Below are positions 44,227 through 50,843 of a DNA stretch of 64,000 nucleotides, piece by piece. Under the pieces are notes generated by a model. That model saw only the letters and a list, made by a program, of their open reading frames with translations. It searched no databases and was not told where the DNA came from. The position numbers and the translations under genes were made by a program. Numbering within the stretch: position 1 is the stretch's first letter; every line of letters starts with the position of its first letter. This DNA is from Gammaproteobacteria bacterium (GTDB lineage Bacteria > Pseudomonadota > Gammaproteobacteria > Ga0077536), in assembly GCA_024235015.1 (NCBI GenBank), contig JACKNG010000001.1, forward strand, positions 450,905 to 514,904, in the 5' to 3' direction.

Positions 44227-44619
44227 TCAGTCCTGCGTCTCGTAGCGCGGCTGCTTGGCCTTCACGTAGGTCTGCTTGAGCCGGATCAGCGGCCCGTCGA
44301 AGTGCAGCAGGTCGAGGCCGCGCAGGACGGTGGTGACACCGTCCTTGGTGGTGCGCAGATCCCAGCTGCTCATGACCTTGCCGCTCTCGGCGTCGACGAA
44401 GGTGTCGTCCTCGACGAACTCCATCGTGCCGAAGCGGCCTTCGAACTGCGGCTCGAACGCGGCGCGCACGGCCGCCTTGCCCTCGTTGGGCCGGCCGTTG
44501 AGCTCGTCGTACACGGCATCCTCGCTGAAGAAGGCCATGACGGCATCGAGATCGTTGCGGTTGAACGCGTCGAGAAATTCGCGCGTGCGTGCGTAGAGTT
44601 CCTGGCGGCGATCGGCCAT
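44227..44619 (-). CDS. SnoaL-like/NTF2-family protein
   Basis: FLDAFNRNDLDAVMAFFSEDAVY, RGLDLLHF. Confidence 0.85.
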   Translation of the reverse strand: MADRRQELYARTREFLDAFNRNDLDAVMAFFSEDAVYDELNGRPNEGKAAVRAAFEPQFEGRFGTMEFVEDDTFVDAESGKVMSSWDLRTTKDGVTTVLRGLDLLHFDGPLIRLKQTYVKAKQPRYETQD

Positions 44620-44744
44620 GGCGGCTGCCCTCCCCTGCGGTGGACGCGGACGTGGGGCCGGATTCTAGCAGGCTCCCCCCGCCGCCGAGCCCCCCGGGGC
44701 GCCGCCGGGAGGGGTAATCGTTCACGCCGCGGTCGCGGCCGCGT

Positions 44745-45665
44745 TCAGCCGGCCAGGCCGCGGAAACGCAGGTAGTCGGCCGCGGTCTCCGCCGGGCGTT
44801 CGATCATGGGCACGTGACCCATGCGTGGCATCAGGATGCGTTCGGCCTTGGGCAGCAGGCCGGCGACGACGTCGAGACCCGACGGGTGCAACACGCGGTC
44901 GTCGTCGCCCCACGCGACCAGGGTCCGCGTGGCAAGGCCGTCGATACGCCCTTCCAGCGGCACCGGGTCACCGAAGATGTCGGCGAAGATCTTGTGATTG
45001 AAGGCCGCCTCGCGGCGTGCGCGCGCGAGGAGTGGCCGCTTGAACTGCGCCGGCAGGTAGGGCTGACGGGTGAAGCACAGCGCGGCGAGGCGCTCGAACT
45101 GCGCCATGGTGTCGGTCACCAGCGGGTTGTCGCCGCGCTCGATGAGGGCCAGGGTCTCGCTGGTCTCGGCGCCCATGGCGCCGGCCGGGGCGAGCAGCCA
45201 CAGGCTCGCCACGCGCTCCGGATGGCGGGCGGCGAACATCGCCGCGAGGTAACCGCCCATCGAGTTGCCGCCGAGATGAAAGCGGTCGAGGCCGAGGGCA
45301 TCGGCGAAGGCGGCGATACGTTCGAGCTGGGCATCGAGCCCGTAACTCGCCTCCGGGCGCCGCGTGCTGTCGCCGAAACCCGGCAGGTCGGGGGCATAGA
45401 CGTGGCAGTGGCGGGTGAGATGCGGTGCGATCGGCACCCAGTTGTCCTTGTTGGCGCCGAAGCCGTGCAACAGCAGCAGTGGCTCGCCGCGGCCCCCCTC
45501 CAGGTAGGGCACGCGGTGACCGTCGACGCTGACCGCGTCGACGCGCAGGCGCCCGGCGCGCCGCGCCAGGGCCAGCGCGCCGGCCAGCACCACGCCGGGC
45601 ACGAGGTAGTAGAGCGCGACGGCCGCAAGGACCAGCGCGAGCAGGACGTAGAGGATGACGTTCAT
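44745..45665 (-). CDS. Alpha/beta hydrolase (lipase/esterase) with N-terminal membrane anchor
   Basis: LLLHGF, PDLPGFGDS, GNSMGG, GHVPM. Start overlaps the upstream stop. Confidence 0.9.
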   Translation of the reverse strand: MNVILYVLLALVLAAVALYYLVPGVVLAGALALARRAGRLRVDAVSVDGHRVPYLEGGRGEPLLLLHGFGANKDNWVPIAPHLTRHCHVYAPDLPGFGDSTRRPEASYGLDAQLERIAAFADALGLDRFHLGGNSMGGYLAAMFAARHPERVASLWLLAPAGAMGAETSETLALIERGDNPLVTDTMAQFERLAALCFTRQPYLPAQFKRPLLARARREAAFNHKIFADIFGDPVPLEGRIDGLATRTLVAWGDDDRVLHPSGLDVVAGLLPKAERILMPRMGHVPMIERPAETAADYLRFRGLAG

Positions 45666-47389
45666 GCGCCGTCGACGACCGGCAGGATCAACCGCGAGGC
45701 GCGGCCGGCCTCGCGGAACACCCGCTGCAGGGCCGGTTCGAAGCGCGTCGCGGTATGGGCCAGCTCGCCGGTGTTGGGATTGCGGTCGTAGCGCGGGAAA
45801 TCGCTGGACGTCACCAGCACCGCCAGCCGGTGACCGGCGCGGAACACCGCCGCCGTCGCCCACAGGTCGAGGGTGTAGGTGGTCACCGCGCCCGGTTCCA
45901 ACAGGCACCGTTGGCGCCCGTCGCGCAGGCTCGCGCGCACCACGCCGTCGCACAGGTTGACGATGCGACCGTCGGGATGGACGTCGCACAGCTTGACCAT
46001 CCAGTCGGTGTCCGGCCCCGAGGTCGCAGCGACCAGCTCGAAGCTGACCGCCCCGGCGATCTCGAGATCGCGTGCGAGCGGCGCCGAGGTGTAGACCAGC
46101 ACGTCGCGCCGAGCGGCGACCTCGCGCTGGTCGACCGGGCCGGCCGGGTATTGCGGTGGCAGCAGGGTGTTGCCGCCGCGCGTCGGGCACGGCTCGGCCG
46201 GGTCGTAGACGTAGCTGTCGGCGCCCGCCCCCGTCGCCGGCGCCTGCGGCGCGAGGCAACCGCCCGCGTGCAGGTACCACGACGTCGGCCGGTTGGGCGG
46301 CGGCCAGTCACTCGCCTCGCGCCAGCGATTCGGGCCCTGCACGAAGTAGCGCACCGGCGCCTCGTCCTCGCAGCCGTTGGCGGCCTCGTTCAGCCAGCGA
46401 TCGAACCAGCGCAGCTGCAGCTTGGTCAGGTCTTCCTTGAGGTCGAGGAACAGGCCGTTGGCGCGGAAGCCGAAATCGACCTCGCCGACGACGTTGCCGA
46501 ACATGCCGTGCGACCACGGGCCGATGACCAGGCGGCTGTGGCGCCGCGCCTGCTCGCTGCCGGCGTTGGCGCGCATGCCGGCGAAATGCTCGAGGTCGCC
46601 CATCAGCAGCAGGTCGTGCCAGCCGGCGATACTGAGGCTGGGCACCGTGACCTCGGCGTGGCGATCGGAGAACAACACCGAGCCGGTCCAGTCGTCCGGT
46701 GCCGGGTGACGCAGGAATTCGTAGAAGAACGGCACGAAATCATCGGCCTCGGGGTGCGCCGGCGCGAAGCGCTCGAGCGGCAGGGCAGCGAGGATGTCGC
46801 CGAAGGCGTCGATGTCGTCGATGAGCTGGACCAGGGGCGGGCCGAAGCTGGCCGGCTCGGGCCGCGCCCGGATCAGCGCGGCAGGCCCGATCGCGCGCAG
46901 CGCCCACATCGCCAGCGTGCCGAGGTTGAGTGCGCCGCCGCGCCAGAAATGGTTGCGCCAGAAATCGTTGGGCGCCGTGGTCGGCGAGATCGCGCCGAGC
47001 GCGGGGTGCCGGGACAGCGCCGCCAGCCACGAGGTACCGCCCATGTAGGACAGCCCGTAGCAGCCGACGCGCCCGCTCGACCAGGCTTGCGCCGCGCACC
47101 AGGCGATGCTGTCGTGACCGTCGTCGCGCTCGTGCACGTAGGGAAAGAACACCCCGCCCTCCGAGGCCCAGCGCGACCGTACGTCCTGGATGACGACGGC
47201 GAAGCCGGCTGCCGCCGCGCGCACCGGGTCCAGGGTCATGGCCGTGATCGGCCACAGTTCCTTGTTGTAGGGCGTGCGCTGCAACAGCACCGGGTGGCGG
47301 CCGCCGTCGTTGGGACGGTAGACGTCGGCACGCAGGCGCACGCCGTCGCGCAGGGGAATGTCGACGTTCTTCTCGACGATGACGGTCAT
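45662..47389 (-). CDS. CocE/NonD family hydrolase
   Basis: RDGVRLRAD, RTPYNK, QDVRSRWASEG, GLSYMG, GWHD, IGPWSH, SSDFPRYDRNPNTG. Confidence 0.92.
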   Translation of the reverse strand: MTVIVEKNVDIPLRDGVRLRADVYRPNDGGRHPVLLQRTPYNKELWPITAMTLDPVRAAAAGFAVVIQDVRSRWASEGGVFFPYVHERDDGHDSIAWCAAQAWSSGRVGCYGLSYMGGTSWLAALSRHPALGAISPTTAPNDFWRNHFWRGGALNLGTLAMWALRAIGPAALIRARPEPASFGPPLVQLIDDIDAFGDILAALPLERFAPAHPEADDFVPFFYEFLRHPAPDDWTGSVLFSDRHAEVTVPSLSIAGWHDLLLMGDLEHFAGMRANAGSEQARRHSRLVIGPWSHGMFGNVVGEVDFGFRANGLFLDLKEDLTKLQLRWFDRWLNEAANGCEDEAPVRYFVQGPNRWREASDWPPPNRPTSWYLHAGGCLAPQAPATGAGADSYVYDPAEPCPTRGGNTLLPPQYPAGPVDQREVAARRDVLVYTSAPLARDLEIAGAVSFELVAATSGPDTDWMVKLCDVHPDGRIVNLCDGVVRASLRDGRQRCLLEPGAVTTYTLDLWATAAVFRAGHRLAVLVTSSDFPRYDRNPNTGELAHTATRFEPALQRVFREAGRASRLILPVVDGA

Positions 47390-47414
47390 GTGAGGTCCTG
47401 TGTCGGGGGGTGGA

Positions 47415-47801
47415 TCAGGGCTGGTCGCTGGCCTCGTCGGCCGACGCCCGGCGGTCACGCGGCGCGCGCGGGCCACCGGGCGCGAGCAGTTGTTCGATCA
47501 TCGAGCGGTGCAGGTCGACCAGGGCCAGCCAGTTGTGCAGGAACAGCGTGCCGGCCTGGGTCAGTTCGTACATGCGGCGGGCCGGCCCGGACTGGCTGGT
47601 GTCCCACATCGAGCACACCAGGCCCATGTGTTCGAGTTGGCGCAACGCCCGGTACACCGAGCCCTTGTTGTACTCGCCGAGACCGGCCTCGTTGAGCCGC
47701 TGCACGAGTTCGTAGCCGTAGGCCGACCAGCCCTTGAGCATGGCCAGCAGGTGGGCGTTCAGCATGTCGCCGGTCGGGTTGACCGAATGCTCGTCTTTCA
47801 T
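47415..47801 (-). CDS. phaQ: PadR-family repressor, PhaQ-like (PHB-responsive)
   Basis: YGYELVQRL, GSVYRALRQLE, WDTSQSGPARRMYELTQAG closely resemble Bacillus PhaQ as recalled; divergent from a PHA operon. Confidence 0.82.
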   Translation of the reverse strand: MKDEHSVNPTGDMLNAHLLAMLKGWSAYGYELVQRLNEAGLGEYNKGSVYRALRQLEHMGLVCSMWDTSQSGPARRMYELTQAGTLFLHNWLALVDLHRSMIEQLLAPGGPRAPRDRRASADEASDQP

Positions 47802-47846
47802 CGCTCCGTTCCTTTCCGGCGCGTGGCCGGCAAATCGCTGCAGCTA

Positions 47847-47887
47847 CCTATATGCATCTTGCACCTAGGTGTCAAATGTCTTATATT
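47847..47887. promoter_or_regulatory. Overlapping divergent sigma70 promoters with a central palindrome (candidate PhaQ operator)
   Basis: Plus strand TTGCAC (47859-47864)-N17-TATATT (47882-47887). Minus strand TTGACA (47875-47870)-N17-TATAGG (47852-47847). Palindrome TTGCACCTAGGTGtCAA spans both -35 boxes. Confidence 0.8.
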
Positions 47888-47965
47888 TTGCATCGCAGCA
47901 TTTCGACACCCCGTGAATCCGTCGTGCTGCACAGGAAAACCCGTACAACCCAGGAGGTTGCAGAC

Positions 47966-48403
47966 ATGGCCACGACGAAGAAGACCGAGACGACGGTCGA
48001 AATCCCCGCCCAGTTCACCGAATCCGCCAATGCCTACGCCGAGCGCATGCTCAGCGCCCACGAGCGCCTGGCTAACGCCATGGCGACCGCCCGCGCGCGC
48101 AACGCCCGCGTCGCCGACAAGTTCTTCGAGGCCCTGGTCGCCGGCCAGCGTGACGCCCTCGAGCTCAGCCGCGCCATGATCGCGGAGCCGACTGCCTATG
48201 CCAAGAACATGGAAGCCGTCGTGCACTCCATGACCACCGCGCAGGAGCGTGCGCTCGAAGTCGCCAAGACCGTCTATCGCGAACAGTCGGAAGCCACCGG
48301 CGAGATGCGCGAAGCGGCCGGCAAGGCCTTCGAATCGGCCAAGACCTGGATGCCCTCCTTCGACAAGATGAAGGACCTGTGGAGCCCGGTCGCCGCCAAG
48401 TAA
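47966..48403 (+). CDS. Phasin-like alanine-rich helical protein
   Basis: 145 aa, Ala/Glu-rich and predicted all-helical; CAGGAGG RBS; first gene of the PHA operon. Confidence 0.65.
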   Translation: MATTKKTETTVEIPAQFTESANAYAERMLSAHERLANAMATARARNARVADKFFEALVAGQRDALELSRAMIAEPTAYAKNMEAVVHSMTTAQERALEVAKTVYREQSEATGEMREAAGKAFESAKTWMPSFDKMKDLWSPVAAK

Positions 48404-48441: not shown

Positions 48442-49257
48442 ATGATCCATACCGAAAACGAGCCCATCGATACCGACGAAGACGTCAGTCATCTCGGCTT
48501 TCTCGGCTATGACGACGCCATCGAGCACGTCCTCACGCCCCTGTGGCGCGAGGCCGTATGGGGCTTCGAGTGGGCCCAGCTGCGCCTGAGCCCGGTGTTC
48601 TACGGTATCGGCGTGCCGCACGGTCGCGGCGAGCCGGTACTGGTGATCCCGGGTTTCATGGCCGGCGACCTGCTCATGCTGGAAATGCATCGCTGGCTCA
48701 AGCGCATCGGCTACCGCTCGTCGCTGTCGCGTATTCCGTGGAACAACGACTGCCCGGATCTCACCGGGCGCAAGCTGCTCCACCGCGTACGGCGGCTCTA
48801 CGAGCGCACCGGCAAGCGGGTCAACCTGGTCGGCCACAGCCTCGGCGGCATGCTCGCCAGGAGCATCGTCCAGGAGGTCCCCGAGTACGTCGACCGCGTG
48901 GTCACGCTCGGTTCGCCGTTCCGCTCGCTGGTCAAGGCCCATCCGGCCGTGGTCGGCATCTGGGACAAGCTCAAGCTGGCCCAGGGCGGGCTCATCGGCC
49001 GCAATCTGCATGCGTCCTGCGGCACCGGGCACTGCACCTGCACCTTCGTTCGCAACATGAGCCTGCCGAAGGCGGTCGACGTGCCGCAGTACGCGATCTA
49101 CTCGCGCAACGACGGCGTCGCCGACTGGTCGAGTTGCATCGAGGACGATCCGAGCATGAACCGCGAGGTGTCCTGCACCCATATCGGCATGGCGGTCCAT
49201 GCCGGCGTGTACCGCGAACTGGCGGGCTGCCTGGCGGCCGGCCGCACCGGCGCCTGA
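48442..49257 (+). CDS. Alpha/beta esterase/lipase (GHSLGG)
   Basis: VLVIPGF, LVGHSLGG, VTLGSP, YSRNDGV, CTHIGM (Ser-Asp-His). Confidence 0.85.
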   Translation: MIHTENEPIDTDEDVSHLGFLGYDDAIEHVLTPLWREAVWGFEWAQLRLSPVFYGIGVPHGRGEPVLVIPGFMAGDLLMLEMHRWLKRIGYRSSLSRIPWNNDCPDLTGRKLLHRVRRLYERTGKRVNLVGHSLGGMLARSIVQEVPEYVDRVVTLGSPFRSLVKAHPAVVGIWDKLKLAQGGLIGRNLHASCGTGHCTCTFVRNMSLPKAVDVPQYAIYSRNDGVADWSSCIEDDPSMNREVSCTHIGMAVHAGVYRELAGCLAAGRTGA

Positions 49258-49306
49258 CGCCGGCCTGCAAGAAAAACGAACACCGTACTGATCGGAGGGA
49301 ATCACG

Positions 49307-49696
49307 ATGAGCGATGGAGACGGCCTGGACCCGATGCGCCTGTGGCGCGAATGGTTCGTGAAATCCGAGAAAGCCTGGAGCGATGCCCTGACCGACCTGA
49401 TGGGCGACGAACGCTTCTCCAACGGCATGGGACGCTACGTGCACGAAGCGCTGCACACCCATCGCATGTTCAGCGAGGCCATGGCGCAGTACCTGGCGAA
49501 CCTGAACATTCCGTCGCGGGCGGACATCCTCGACATGAGCGACCGCATGGCGCACATCGAGGACACCCTCAACCAGATCCAGGTCGAGCTGCGCGGCCAG
49601 CGCTCGCAGCTGACCAAGCTGGCGGCCAGCGCACCGGGTGCCGAGGAGCGCAAGCGCCCGGCGCGCACGCGCAAACCCGAAACCAATGACAGCTGA
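49307..49696 (+). CDS. Short PHA synthase partner subunit (PhaR class IV / short PhaE-like)
   Basis: DPMRLWREWFVKSEKAWS..DERFSNGMG..YLANLNIPSRADI..IED followed by coiled coil; directly upstream of and overlapping phaC. Confidence 0.78.
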   Translation: MSDGDGLDPMRLWREWFVKSEKAWSDALTDLMGDERFSNGMGRYVHEALHTHRMFSEAMAQYLANLNIPSRADILDMSDRMAHIEDTLNQIQVELRGQRSQLTKLAASAPGAEERKRPARTRKPETNDS

Positions 49697-50843
49697 TGAC
49701 AGCCGCTCGTTCGCGAGCGCGGGACTGATCGAGAACGCCGCCATGGAACCTGTGACCGCCGAACACCCTGCCGCGGGCGACGACGACAACTTCGACGCCC
49801 ACGTCGAACGCGTCGTCCAGCGCGCCATCCTGCGCAACATACCGGGCCTGAACCTGCCCCAGTCGCAGTCCGAGCTCGACGTCGGCCAGACGCCGAAGGA
49901 ACTCGTCTACAGCAACGAGACGGCGCGGCTGTACCACTACACGCCGATGCTCGACGAGATCTACCGCGTGCCGGTGCTGATCGTGATGTCGCCGGTCGCC
50001 AAGGGCTACATCCTCGACCTCGCCCACGGCCAGAGCCTGATCGAATACCTGCTCATGCAGGGCCACGACGTCTACATGCTCGACTGGGCCGCGCCGCACC
50101 GTGAGCAGAGCCGCCTCGGCCTCGACGAGTACGTGCTCGACCTCGTCGGCGGTTGCGTCGAAGCGGTTGCCCACGACAGTGGCGAGGACGACATCACCCT
50201 TATCGGCTACTGCATGGGCGGCATGCTGTCGCTGATGTACACCGCGCTCAACGTCGGCGGCCCGGTCAGGAACCTGGCCTGCTTCACCACCCCGGTGAAT
50301 GGCGACGGCATGGCCTTGTTCAAGAAGTGGATGACCTCGAAGTCGTTCGACATCGATCGCCTGGTCGACCAGATCGGTAACATCCCGGGCGACATGATCA
50401 ACGGTTCGATCCAGGCTCTGCGGCCGCTGCAGCGCTCGGCCAACCAGATGCGTCTGCTCAACAACGTGCAGGACGACGCCTTCGTCAAGGCCCACCTGCG
50501 CTTCGATCGCTGGGCGGTCGACCAGCTGCCCTTGCCGGGCGAGCTCGCACGCAAGATGGCCAAGGATTTCATCATCGACAACAAGCTCATCCGCGGTGGC
50601 CTGGAACTGCGCGGCAAGCCGGTCGACTTTGCTAATATCCGCGTGCCCTTCCTGCACGTCGCCGCGCTCTACGATCACATCGTGCCCGCAGAAGCGTCAC
50701 GTGACCTGATCGATCTCGTCGGCAGCGAAGACAAGAAGGAGATCGTCATGAAGGGTGGGCACGTGAGCCTGGTCGCCGGCGGCAATGCCATCTTCCGCCT
50801 GTGGCCCCAGCTCGATGCCTGGCTGGCCGCACGCGACCAGTAG
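49686..50843 (+). CDS. phaC: PHA synthase catalytic subunit, small class III/IV type
   Basis: VGQTPKE, YILDL..GQSL..YL...G.DVY..DW, lipase-box IGYCMGG (Cys), YDHIVP (Asp), GGHVSL (His); about 385 aa. Alternative start at 49743. Confidence 0.92.
   Translation: MTADDSRSFASAGLIENAAMEPVTAEHPAAGDDDNFDAHVERVVQRAILRNIPGLNLPQSQSELDVGQTPKELVYSNETARLYHYTPMLDEIYRVPVLIVMSPVAKGYILDLAHGQSLIEYLLMQGHDVYMLDWAAPHREQSRLGLDEYVLDLVGGCVEAVAHDSGEDDITLIGYCMGGMLSLMYTALNVGGPVRNLACFTTPVNGDGMALFKKWMTSKSFDIDRLVDQIGNIPGDMINGSIQALRPLQRSANQMRLLNNVQDDAFVKAHLRFDRWAVDQLPLPGELARKMAKDFIIDNKLIRGGLELRGKPVDFANIRVPFLHVAALYDHIVPAEASRDLIDLVGSEDKKEIVMKGGHVSLVAGGNAIFRLWPQLDAWLAARDQ

What the first reader, a model, noticed from the sequence alone, without database searches (positions are those of the whole stretch)
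47847..47887. Two sigma70 promoters interlocked on one palindrome: a bidirectional switch
Seen: plus-strand TTGCAC-N17-TATATT (towards the phasin) and minus-strand TTGACA-N17-TATAGG (towards phaQ). Their -35 hexamers are the two ends of TTG-CACCTAGGTG-tCAA, inside the most AT-rich patch in the region. Known: PadR dimers bind palindromes overlapping promoters. Inference: a single PhaQ dimer site represses both operons, and RNA polymerase occupancy is mutually exclusive. TGCATC half-sites flank it at 47853 and 47889.
Basis: partly seen in the sequence, partly recalled or inferred. Interest (0 to 1): 0.7.

Follow-up and report, generated by a model that had tools for sequence, protein, structure and literature searches.

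The report
PhaQ-type operator inside divergent promoters
The palindrome is real, but it is only one flank of a deeply conserved binding site for a PhaQ-like repressor lying across two back-to-back promoters of a bioplastic (PHA) storage locus: an ordinary kind of genetic switch, seen here in a bacterial group where it had not been described.

Summary
With an E. coli-derived sigma70 matrix, the two proposed promoters are the only sites in 64 kb scoring at least 9 bits. The 10-bp palindrome alone is not beyond chance (14% of shuffles).

Comparison with 66 related loci and 26 Bacillaceae phaQ loci moves the centre of the site. The conserved element is a 19-bp core, TAnnTGCAnnnTGCAnnTA (47849-47867, axis 47858), inside a 35-bp symmetric block (47841-47875). 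The same core, with a mirrored C-to-T/G-to-A change, lies on the promoter of annotated phaQ genes in Priestia and Bacillus.

In the window the core contains the phasin-side -35 and covers the spacer and most of the -10 of the padR promoter.

Metatranscriptome contigs leave 47824-47902 uncovered, while DNA contigs span it. That fits divergent starts near 47840 and 47894.

A second conserved palindrome, TGCAnYGCA (47889-47897), sits on the predicted phasin start and resembles an AniA/PhaR box. What binds it is unknown.

Verdict: a real PhaQ-type repressor-operator switch. This is a new member of a known kind. Binding, stoichiometry and PHA response are untested.

The parts
47849..47867 (.). Operator core TATATGCATCTTGCACCTA (TA-nn-TGCA-nnn-TGCA-nn-TA), symmetry axis at 47858
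   Evidence: The positions T9 A10 T13 G14 C15 G21 A23 T26 A27 are invariant or nearly so in 51 unique operators from 63 of 67 loci. The same core pattern occurs once upstream of phaQ in 26 of 26 Bacillaceae loci, with 0.02 expected. It is unique in the window.
47841..47875 (.). 35-bp two-fold symmetric block around the core. On the padR-sense strand it reads TTGACA CCTAGG TGCA AGA TGCA TATAGG TAGCTG.
   Evidence: The matrix built from relatives scores 40.7 bits here, and the next best site in 64 kb scores -2.9. The padR-side outer arm is degenerate in the window's clade.
47859..47875 (.).
   Evidence: The local form CA-nnTAnn-TG is kept in relatives, but the perfect 10-mer is found only in the 5 closest operators.
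47859..47864 (+). -35 of the phasin-side promoter (TTGCAC). It is also the phasin-proximal operator half-site.
   Evidence: The best leftward promoter starts here in 17 of 17 loci of class I plus the unclassed group, always with a 17-bp spacer.
47882..47887 (+). -10 of the phasin-side promoter (TATATT)
   Evidence: At this fixed position close relatives read TATATT, TATCTT, TACAGT, TAGATT, TAATAT, TATAAT, TATGCT or TAGCAT. A2 and T6 are always kept.
47870..47875 (-). -35 of the padR promoter (TTGACA)
   Evidence: A perfect hexamer, present in all 11 class I and 19 of 20 class III loci (TTGCCA in the other).
47847..47852 (-). -10 of the padR promoter (TATAGG). Its first four bases lie inside the operator core.
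   Evidence: It reads TATAGR or TATAGC 17 bp from TTGACA in 10 of 11 class I loci. The sixth base is T in only 2 of 51 unique operators and in no class I locus, so this is a weak promoter or a compromise with the operator.
47889..47897 (.). Second conserved palindrome TGCATCGCA (YGCRNYGCR). The extended match is 47883-47903. It straddles the predicted phasin transcription start near 47893-47895.
   Evidence: It is present at a fixed distance on the phasin side in 32 of 60 loci and on the padR side in 9 of 60, against about 1% in shuffles. 47883-47903 is the only match in 64 kb to the S. meliloti AniA/PhaR 21-mer consensus (PMC12542648).
47415..47801 (-). PadR-family, PhaQ-like regulator gene (128 aa)
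   Evidence: Pfam PadR 65.5 bits. TIGR02719 repress_PhaQ 86.9 bits, below the cut-off of 139. 41% identity to annotated P. megaterium PhaQ, BLASTP E 1e-27.
47966..48403 (+). Putative phasin (145 aa, two long helices), first gene of the plus-strand PHA genes
   Evidence: No Pfam or NCBIfam hit, and homologues are named 'hypothetical'. AlphaFold2 model: helices 15-73 and 78-128, pLDDT 77. Synteny is conserved. RNA contigs cover it in six runs.
48442..50843 (+). Downstream genes: alpha/beta hydrolase 48442-49257, PhaR-like synthase subunit 49307-49696, class III/IV-type PhaC about 49686-50843
   Evidence: The order is conserved in most relatives.
45662..47389 (-). S15 (CocE/NonD-type) hydrolase gene, 25 bp downstream of padR and probably co-transcribed with it
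   Evidence: It lies next to padR in about half of the relatives.

Best explanation
The intergenic region 47802-47965 is a bidirectional control region of a PHA (polyhydroxyalkanoate) locus. A PhaQ-like PadR-family repressor, encoded at 47415-47801 on the minus strand, binds as at least one dimer to a 19-bp palindrome, TAnnTGCAnnnTGCAnnTA (47849-47867, axis 47858).

That site contains the -35 hexamer of the plus-strand promoter (TTGCAC-N17-TATATT, start near 47894), which reads into the putative phasin, a hydrolase, phaR and phaC. It also fills the spacer and covers four of the six -10 bases of the minus-strand promoter (TTGACA-N17-TATAGG, start near 47840), which reads into padR and a hydrolase gene. 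One bound repressor therefore shuts both promoters, autoregulation included.

By analogy with Bacillus megaterium PhaQ, the repressor is probably titrated away by nascent PHA granules, which switches on phasin synthesis.

Shown here: the sequences, their conservation, the homology of regulator and operator core to bona fide phaQ loci, and an untranscribed gap between two transcribed sides.

Inferred: the binding itself, the number of dimers, repression rather than activation, the response to PHA, and competition between the two polymerases.
For: 1. The coordinates were verified, and these are the only two sigma70-like sites of at least 9 bits in 64 kb.
2. 63 of 67 loci encoding a homologue of the regulator carry the operator. 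The core positions are invariant across 51 unique sequences, although the proteins are only 52-88% identical. Among close relatives only 47847-47902 is alignable.
3. A strict operator pattern was scanned over one genome for each of 185,579 species and gave 63 stretches. 44 lie in these padR/PHA loci, one per complete genome, against about 17 expected by chance (my estimate).
4. The regulator's best match among 72,556 plasmid records is annotated P. megaterium phaQ. All 26 Bacillaceae phaQ loci have exactly one TANNTGYANNNTRCANNTA, 35-128 bp upstream of phaQ and centred on the -10 of a TTGACA-N17-TAAATT promoter. The difference from the gammaproteobacterial core is mirrored in both halves (TGCA/TGCA against TGTA/TACA). 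B. megaterium PhaQ is reported to bind its own promoter and PHB (PMC9049629).
5. The half-site centres are about 11 bp apart. This is the scale of solved or defined PadR-family sites: B. subtilis PadR 6-N6-6 (PMC5728393) and AphA ATATGCA-N6-TGCATAT (PMC3440409).
6. Promoter positions are kept in relatives, and the phasin -10 varies only at tolerated positions.
7. RNA contigs of six metatranscriptome runs stop at 47823 on the padR side and begin at 47903-47912 on the phasin side, whereas DNA contigs of four runs cross the gap unbroken.
8. The residues Y30, Y50 and R75/R76 and the whole recognition helix are invariant or nearly so in 32 homologues, matching the PadR signature of Tyr, Tyr and a basic residue.
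Against: - There are no binding, footprint or transcription-start data for this organism.
- The consensus promoter scan rejects both promoters. TTGCAC matches only 3 of 6. TATAGG lacks the usually essential last T, and in relatives that base is almost never T (2 of 51 unique operators).
- The regulator scores below NCBI's PhaQ cut-off (86.9 against 139).
- The 'phasin' has no family assignment.
- RNA contigs carry no strand or 5'-end information, and their ends only bracket the starts.
- Bases outside the 19-bp core (A6, T30, G31 in operator numbering) are conserved even where they serve no -35. One dimer does not obviously explain this.
- The operator co-occurs with the PHA genes as tightly as with padR, so a different regulator cannot be formally excluded.
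- The primary paper on the B. megaterium PhaQ footprint was not available.
Confidence: 0.7

Rival explanations
1. One reading: one PhaQ dimer binds the 17-bp palindrome TTG-CACCTAGGTG-tCAA, centred at 47866/67, and TGCATC elements are accessory half-sites.
For: The palindrome is perfect over 10 bp and unique in the window. With a matrix of operator halves it is the best-scoring 17-mer in 64 kb, at 27 bits. CA-nnTAnn-TG is kept in relatives and, on one side, in Bacillaceae.
Against: The outer arm TTGACA is lost in the 23 class II loci, while the central TGCA-N3-TGCA and both TA steps stay invariant. Bacillaceae phaQ promoters share the central palindrome, not this one. The conserved CA and TG are only 8 bp apart, which is a poor fit for a winged-helix dimer. 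A 10-bp palindrome occurs by chance in 14% of shuffles.
Confidence: 0.12
2. Two dimers bind side by side. One sits on TTGACA-N6-TGCA (47860-47875) and one on TGCA-N6-TAGCTG (47841-47856). This gives a 35-bp operator, with the second and weaker site filled cooperatively.
For: The 35-bp block is two-fold symmetric with four TGCA-like elements. The two best matches to the half-operator matrix in 64 kb are these adjacent sites, at 27 and 17 bits. TG(A)CA-N6-TGCA resembles the AphA box TGCA-N6-TGCA. A6, T30 and G31 are kept without any promoter role. The B. subtilis padC promoter also has two PadR operators.
Against: The outer arms are conserved only where a promoter uses them as a -35. Bacillaceae lack a conserved outer half on one side. 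In the window the outer arm of the second site is degenerate (TAGCTG).
Confidence: 0.3
3. No repressor site at all: the block is conserved only because it is two overlapping promoters.
For: The arms are -35 hexamers and the N6 boxes can act as -10 elements. Some chance hits of the pattern in unrelated genomes look like plain TTGACA-N17-TATAAT promoters.
Against: The most invariant bases (TGC at operator positions 13-15 and GCA at 21-23) lie in the spacer of the padR promoter and partly upstream of the phasin -35, where sigma70 reads no bases. The same core sits at a different promoter position in Bacillaceae. The symmetry and the mirrored base change point to a dimeric protein.
Confidence: 0.05
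4. The operator, or at least the second palindrome at 47889-47897, is bound by a different PHA regulator, for example an AniA/PhaR-type protein encoded elsewhere. The phasin promoter would then be under dual control.
For: 47883-47903 is the only match in 64 kb to the S. meliloti PhaR consensus WNWDDNYGCRNYGCRNHHWNW, with 0.16 expected (PMC12542648). The motif is conserved at fixed positions in 32 of 60 loci. It is absent from Pseudohongiella and Porticoccaceae loci that keep the main operator, as expected for a lineage-specific second factor.
Against: No AniA signature peptide was found in the window or in any fetched locus, and the rest of the genome could not be searched. The degenerate 9-mer core is common in GC-rich DNA, with 109 matches in the window. 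TGCA is also the half-site of the main operator, so the PhaQ-like protein itself may bind here.
Confidence: 0.25

Closest known systems
PhaQ of Bacillus (Priestia) megaterium and its phaQ-phaP promoter
   Same: The regulators are homologous (41% identity; best NCBIfam model). Both lie in a PHA locus with a phaR-phaC type synthase and a small granule-protein gene. They share the operator core TAnnTGyAnnnTrCAnnTA overlapping the regulator's own promoter. Autoregulation is therefore expected, as reported for PhaQ (PMC9049629).
   Different: In Bacillaceae phaQ and phaP are co-transcribed from one promoter, and the operator is centred on its -10. Here the regulator and the putative phasin are divergent, and the operator lies across two promoters. 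The half-sites read TGCA rather than TGTA/TACA. The protein scores below the PhaQ equivalog cut-off. The host is an uncultured activated-sludge gammaproteobacterium. PHB binding is not tested.
PadR-family operators: B. subtilis PadR (CNTGNA-N6-TNCANG) and Vibrio AphA (ATATGCA-N6-TGCATAT)
   Same: All are short palindromes read by a winged-helix dimer, overlapping core promoter elements, and acting by repression through occlusion. The signature Tyr/Tyr/basic residues are conserved. TGCA half-sites occur as in AphA.
   Different: The inner TGCA elements are separated by 3 bases, not 6. Invariant TA steps flank them. The effector is presumably a polymer surface, not a small phenolic acid.
PhaR/AniA/PhbF-type PHB-responsive repressors of alpha- and beta-proteobacteria
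   Same: The logic is the same: a granule-titrated autorepressor that controls phasin promoters. The second palindrome here fits the PhaR box YGCRNYGCR, which in S. meliloti also lies near the -35 or between the -10 and the start.
   Different: The protein fold is unrelated, and no such gene was seen in the sequence available.
Classical divergent repressor/operator regions such as Tn10 tetR-tetA and E. coli bioA-bioBFCD (from general knowledge, not tested here)
   Same: The repressor gene and its target operon are transcribed divergently from overlapping promoters, and both are shut by a palindromic operator.
   Different: The protein families and inducers differ. In class III relatives the 35-bp palindrome itself supplies the -35 and -10 of both promoters. 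That overlap is tighter than in tet.

Membership tests
PadR family (Pfam PF03551) | Winged-helix PadR domain above the curated score | tested here: met
   65.5 bits against a cut-off of 27, residues 18-88. 41 PDB PadR-family chains match, the best being 2esh, E 5.5e-11.
PadR family (Pfam PF03551) | Conserved DNA-binding Tyr, Tyr and basic residue (Tyr20, Tyr42, Lys67 of B. subtilis PadR) | tested here: met
   Y30, Y50 and R76 are invariant and R75 nearly invariant in 32 homologues. The feature is defined in PMC5728393. The residue mapping uses the motifs GY[DE], [IV]Y and [KR][KR]MYxLT and is my inference.
PhaQ (NCBIfam TIGR02719, PHB-responsive repressor) | Score at or above the equivalog cut-off | tested here: not met
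   86.9 bits against 139.35. It is still by far the best NCBIfam model, the next scoring 40 bits.
PhaQ (NCBIfam TIGR02719, PHB-responsive repressor) | Encoded next to PHA synthase (phaR/phaC) and granule-protein genes | tested here: met
   The synteny holds in nearly all of the 66 relatives and parallels the P. megaterium locus.
PhaQ (NCBIfam TIGR02719, PHB-responsive repressor) | Own promoter carries the PhaQ-type operator | tested here: met
   The core TANNTGYANNNTRCANNTA is present in 26 of 26 Bacillaceae phaQ promoters and in the window at 47849-47867. That this core is the footprinted site in B. megaterium is inferred, because the primary paper is not held.
PhaQ (NCBIfam TIGR02719, PHB-responsive repressor) | Binds PHB granules and is released from DNA by them | not testable with these tools
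   This needs purified protein and artificial granules.
PhaQ (NCBIfam TIGR02719, PHB-responsive repressor) | phaQ co-transcribed with phaP, as in B. megaterium | tested here: not met
   The genes are divergent here, and RNA coverage has a gap between them.
Sigma70-type promoter | -35 and -10 hexamers 16-18 bp apart that match the consensus | tested here: inconclusive
They are nevertheless the two best weighted-matrix sites in 64 kb and are positionally conserved.
Sigma70-type promoter | Transcription starts about 7 bp downstream of the -10 | tested here: inconclusive
   RNA contigs begin 8-18 nt inside the predicted phasin-side start and end 17 nt inside the predicted padR-side start, and nothing covers 47824-47902. 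There are no 5'-end data.
AniA/PhaR box | Match to WNWDDNYGCRNYGCRNHHWNW in a phasin promoter | tested here: met
   There is a single match in 64 kb, at 47883-47903.
AniA/PhaR box | A PhaR/AniA protein encoded in the genome | tested here: inconclusive
   No NRR[LFM]Y signature was found in the six-frame translation of the window or, with the longer KYPNRRLYD-type signature, of 150 loci. The rest of the genome is not available.
Phasin | Membership of a phasin family (Pfam or NCBIfam) | tested here: not met
   No hit even at E 10. Foldseek finds nothing specific. Only the context, small size, helical model and RNA coverage support the label.

The most novel reading that the evidence does not exclude
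In this gene family the repressor site and the bidirectional promoter are one and the same palindrome. In class III relatives each outer arm is a -35 and each TA-centred hexamer is the -10 of the opposite promoter, so the repressor reads the very bases that sigma70 reads. The window's clade has since moved the phasin -10 outward. In addition, the phasin promoter carries an AniA/PhaR-type box on its start site, so two unrelated PHA-granule-sensing repressors would converge on one promoter.
Probability: 0.2. Interest if true: 0.6.

Novelty: new member of a known kind. Interest (0 to 1): 0.4.

Why it matters
PhaQ has been studied only in Bacillus. These data show a homologous regulator and a homologous operator core in many uncultured Gammaproteobacteria from activated sludge, groundwater and sea water (Pseudohongiella, Porticoccaceae and unnamed lineages). 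Such organisms matter for PHA storage in wastewater treatment.

The comparison yields a testable operator consensus, TAnnTG(C/T)AnnnT(G/A)CAnnTA, and a mirrored base change that could be paired with recognition-helix differences. It also gives a compact natural bidirectional promoter-operator of about 60 bp that could serve as a PHA-responsive part.

As a mechanism it is a textbook autoregulated repressor at divergent promoters, so the surprise for a specialist is modest.

Tried and rejected
- My first model, had two PadR dimers on two CA-N6-TG dyads. I downgraded it after the Bacillaceae comparison. The shared element is the central palindrome, and the outer arms track promoter use.
- Rfam search of 47700-48100: no match.
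- RNA fold of the predicted phasin 5' UTR: no better than shuffles, z 0.53.
- Foldseek of the putative phasin model: only generic helical hairpins, E of 1 or more.
- Search for a PhaR/AniA signature peptide in the window and in all loci: none.
- The bare YGCRNYGCR core is uninformative in this GC-rich window: 109 matches against 154 expected.
- Seven genome-wide pattern hits in Rhodobacteraceae lie between an MFS transporter gene and a MarR-like gene. They are an unrelated site.
- The Lee et al. 2004 PhaQ paper (PMC400616) and the C. glutamicum VanR paper (PMC4325110) are not held. The footprinted B. megaterium site could therefore not be compared directly.
- DNA run X1 gave no laid contig because the run was only partly read. 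Runs X2-X4 and X6 were used instead.

Full report
**1. The observation**

- Plus strand: TTGCAC 47859-64, 17 bases, TATATT 47882-87.
- Minus strand: TTGACA 47875-70, 17 bases, TATAGG 47852-47.
- CACCTAGGTG lies at 47862-71.
- TGCATC occurs at 47853 and 47889.
- GC is 0.40 at 47850-99 against about 0.65 around it.

The tool's consensus promoter scan calls neither promoter. TTGCAC matches 3 of 6, and TATAGG lacks the last T. A 10-bp perfect palindrome turns up in 14% of shuffles of the intergenic region. With a weighted E. coli sigma70 matrix, however, these are the only two sites in the whole 64-kb window, on either strand, scoring at least 9 bits.

**2. The genes**

On the minus strand, 47415-47801 encodes a 128-aa PadR-family protein (Pfam 65.5 bits). 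Its best NCBIfam model is PhaQ, TIGR02719, at 86.9 bits, below the cut-off of 139.

On the plus strand lie four genes:
- a 145-aa ORF, 47966-48403;
- an alpha/beta hydrolase;
- a PhaR-like synthase subunit;
- a class III/IV-type PhaC.

The 145-aa ORF has no family hit, and its homologues are called hypothetical. Its AlphaFold2 model is a long helical hairpin with no informative structural neighbour. 'Phasin' therefore rests on context.

The window comes from an activated-sludge organism. Its relatives are uncultured Gammaproteobacteria, including Pseudohongiella and Porticoccaceae.

**3. Comparative footprint**

I collected 66 distinct related loci. The synteny S15 hydrolase <- padR | phasin-like -> hydrolase -> phaR -> phaC is widely kept.

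63 of 67 loci, the window included, carry a 35-bp two-fold symmetric block upstream of padR. On the padR-sense strand it reads TTGACA nnTAkA TGCA nnn TGCA ynTArr TGTCAA. In 51 unique sequences T9, A10, T13, G14, G21, A23, T26 and A27 are invariant, and C15, C22 and T30 nearly so.

In the window the block is 47841-47875, with its axis at 47858. The matrix built from relatives scores 40.7 bits there and at most -2.9 elsewhere in 64 kb. Among the closest relatives only 47847-47902 aligns, and both flanks are unalignable.

A strict pattern was scanned over one genome for each of 185,579 species and gave 63 stretches.
- 44 lie in these padR/PHA loci, one per complete genome.
- 7 are one unrelated MarR/MFS locus in Rhodobacteraceae.
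- The remainder is about the number expected by chance, and some look like plain promoters.

**4. Link to bona fide PhaQ**

Among 72,556 plasmid records the best protein match is the annotated phaQ of Priestia megaterium (41% identity). That record shows phaC <- phbB <- phaR | phaQ -> phaP.

In it and in 25 further Bacillaceae phaQ loci, the pattern TANNTGYANNNTRCANNTA occurs exactly once per locus. It always lies 35-128 bp upstream of phaQ, with 0.02 matches expected. The Bacillaceae consensus is CA yATAGG TGTA AAT TACA CATAkA. It is centred on the -10 of a TTGACA-N17-TAAATT promoter.

The 19-bp core is therefore shared across phyla. The one systematic difference is mirrored in both halves: TGCA/TGCA against TGTA/TACA. 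That is what a dimer's palindromic site should show. B. megaterium PhaQ is reported to bind its own promoter and PHB granules (review PMC9049629). The primary paper was not available.

The window's core is 47849-47867, TATATGCATCTTGCACCTA.

**5. Promoters**

I scanned 70 bp on each side of the operator in every locus with the same unbiased matrix.

In the window's clade (class I, 11 loci):
- the best padR-direction promoter is TTGACA (operator positions 1-6), 17 bp, then TATAGR or TATAGC, in 10 of 11;
- the best phasin-direction promoter is TTGCAy (positions 17-12 on the bottom strand), 17 bp, then TAnnnT, in 17 of 17 once the six unclassed relatives are added;
- that -10 varies only at tolerated positions (TATATT, TATCTT, TACAGT, TAGATT and others).

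In the other clades the phasin promoter instead uses the padR-side arm as its -35 and the opposite TA hexamer as its -10 (40 of 43). Where both arms are present, the 35-bp palindrome is itself two fully overlapping divergent promoters.

The outer arms are kept only where a promoter uses them. I therefore read them mainly as -35 hexamers, not as operator half-sites.

**6. RNA**

Contigs from six metatranscriptome runs cover padR up to 47823. On the phasin side they begin at 47903, 47910, 47911, 47912, 47939 and 47952. None covers 47824-47902. DNA contigs of four runs cross that stretch unbroken and identical.

This fits starts near 47840 (minus strand) and 47894 (plus strand) and rules out read-through across the operator. 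It does not map 5' ends.

**7. How it most likely works**

A PhaQ-like dimer on 47849-47867 covers the phasin -35 (47859-64). It also covers the spacer and four of the six -10 bases (47847-52) of the padR promoter, and so shuts both.

The half-site centres are about 11 bp apart. That is the scale of B. subtilis PadR (6-N6-6) and AphA (ATATGCA-N6-TGCATAT). The PadR signature residues and the recognition helix are invariant in the family.

Release by PHA granules is inferred from B. megaterium PhaQ.

Whether a second dimer uses the outer arms is open. A6, T30 and G31 stay conserved without any promoter role, and the two best matches to the half-operator matrix in the window are adjacent. On the other hand the conserved CA and TG are only 8 bp apart, and Bacillaceae lack one outer half.

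Mutual exclusion of the two polymerases is plausible, since the starts are about 54 bp apart and the -35 hexamers 5 bp apart. It is untested.

**8. A second element**

TGCATCGCA (47889-97) lies on the predicted phasin start. The form YGCRNYGCR is found at fixed distances on the phasin side in 32 of 60 loci and on the padR side in 9 of 60, against about 1% in shuffles. It is absent from Pseudohongiella and Porticoccaceae loci.

47883-47903 is the only match in 64 kb to the S. meliloti AniA/PhaR 21-mer consensus, with 0.16 expected. No AniA-like peptide signature is present in the sequence I could reach. The binder is unknown: either a second regulator or the PhaQ-like protein itself.

**9. Verdict**

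This is a new member of a known kind, a PhaQ-type autorepressor and operator. Its features of note are a divergent, overlapping-promoter layout and a possible extra box. Interest is moderate.

Noticed in passing
window 44227-47801 (minus strand): padR is followed, after 25 bp, by an S15/CocE-NonD-type hydrolase gene, then an alpha/beta hydrolase gene (overlapping) and a SnoaL-like gene. They probably form one operon from the padR promoter. The S15 gene lies next to padR in about half of the relatives. This suggests that further PHA-related hydrolases are under the same switch.
   Followed up: partly
window 47883-47903: ATATTTTGCATCGCAGCATTT is the only match in 64 kb to the S. meliloti AniA/PhaR binding consensus, and it sits on the predicted phasin transcription start. 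The core is conserved in 32 of 60 related loci. No AniA-like gene was found in the available sequence.
   Followed up: partly
whole window: With an E. coli-derived sigma70 matrix only two sites in 64 kb reach 9 bits, and both are at this locus. Either most promoters of this GC-rich organism match the E. coli consensus poorly, or this pair is unusually strong.
   Followed up: no
L028, L031, L036, L042, L020, L046, L063 (phasin 5' UTRs; alignment): Relatives carry a GC-rich hairpin of differing sequence between the second palindrome and the ribosome-binding site of the phasin-like gene, for example GCGACCCAAAGGTCGC and GCGGCCGAGATGCCGC. The window's own 5' UTR does not fold better than shuffles.
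   Followed up: partly
L097 and L119 (Porticoccaceae contigs; same contigs as L060 and L049): In these loci padR lies downstream of phaR-phaC, not at the divergent junction. The operator nevertheless stays between the hydrolase gene and phaR, so it tracks the PHA promoters rather than the regulator gene.
   Followed up: partly
L090, L110, L112, L134, L137, L144, L146 (Rhodobacteraceae): A conserved TTACATG...TTGACATGTAATTGCAAGTTGCACATA element between an MFS transporter gene and a MarR-like gene matched the operator search pattern. It appears to be an unrelated divergent-promoter operator.
   Followed up: partly
window 47966-48403 and homologues P0089-P0107: The putative phasin belongs to a family with no Pfam or NCBIfam model. 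Its homologues are annotated as hypothetical (one as 'lipoate synthase', evidently an error). It may be an undescribed phasin family of PhaRC-type gammaproteobacterial PHA loci.
   Followed up: partly
L108 (JAYUQF010000306.1, 3950 bp): This contig carries a class I-type operator (TTGACAGCTAGATGCAAGTTGCATATAGATG), but tblastn found none of the padR, phasin, hydrolase, phaR or phaC homologues on it. This is unexplained.
   Followed up: no
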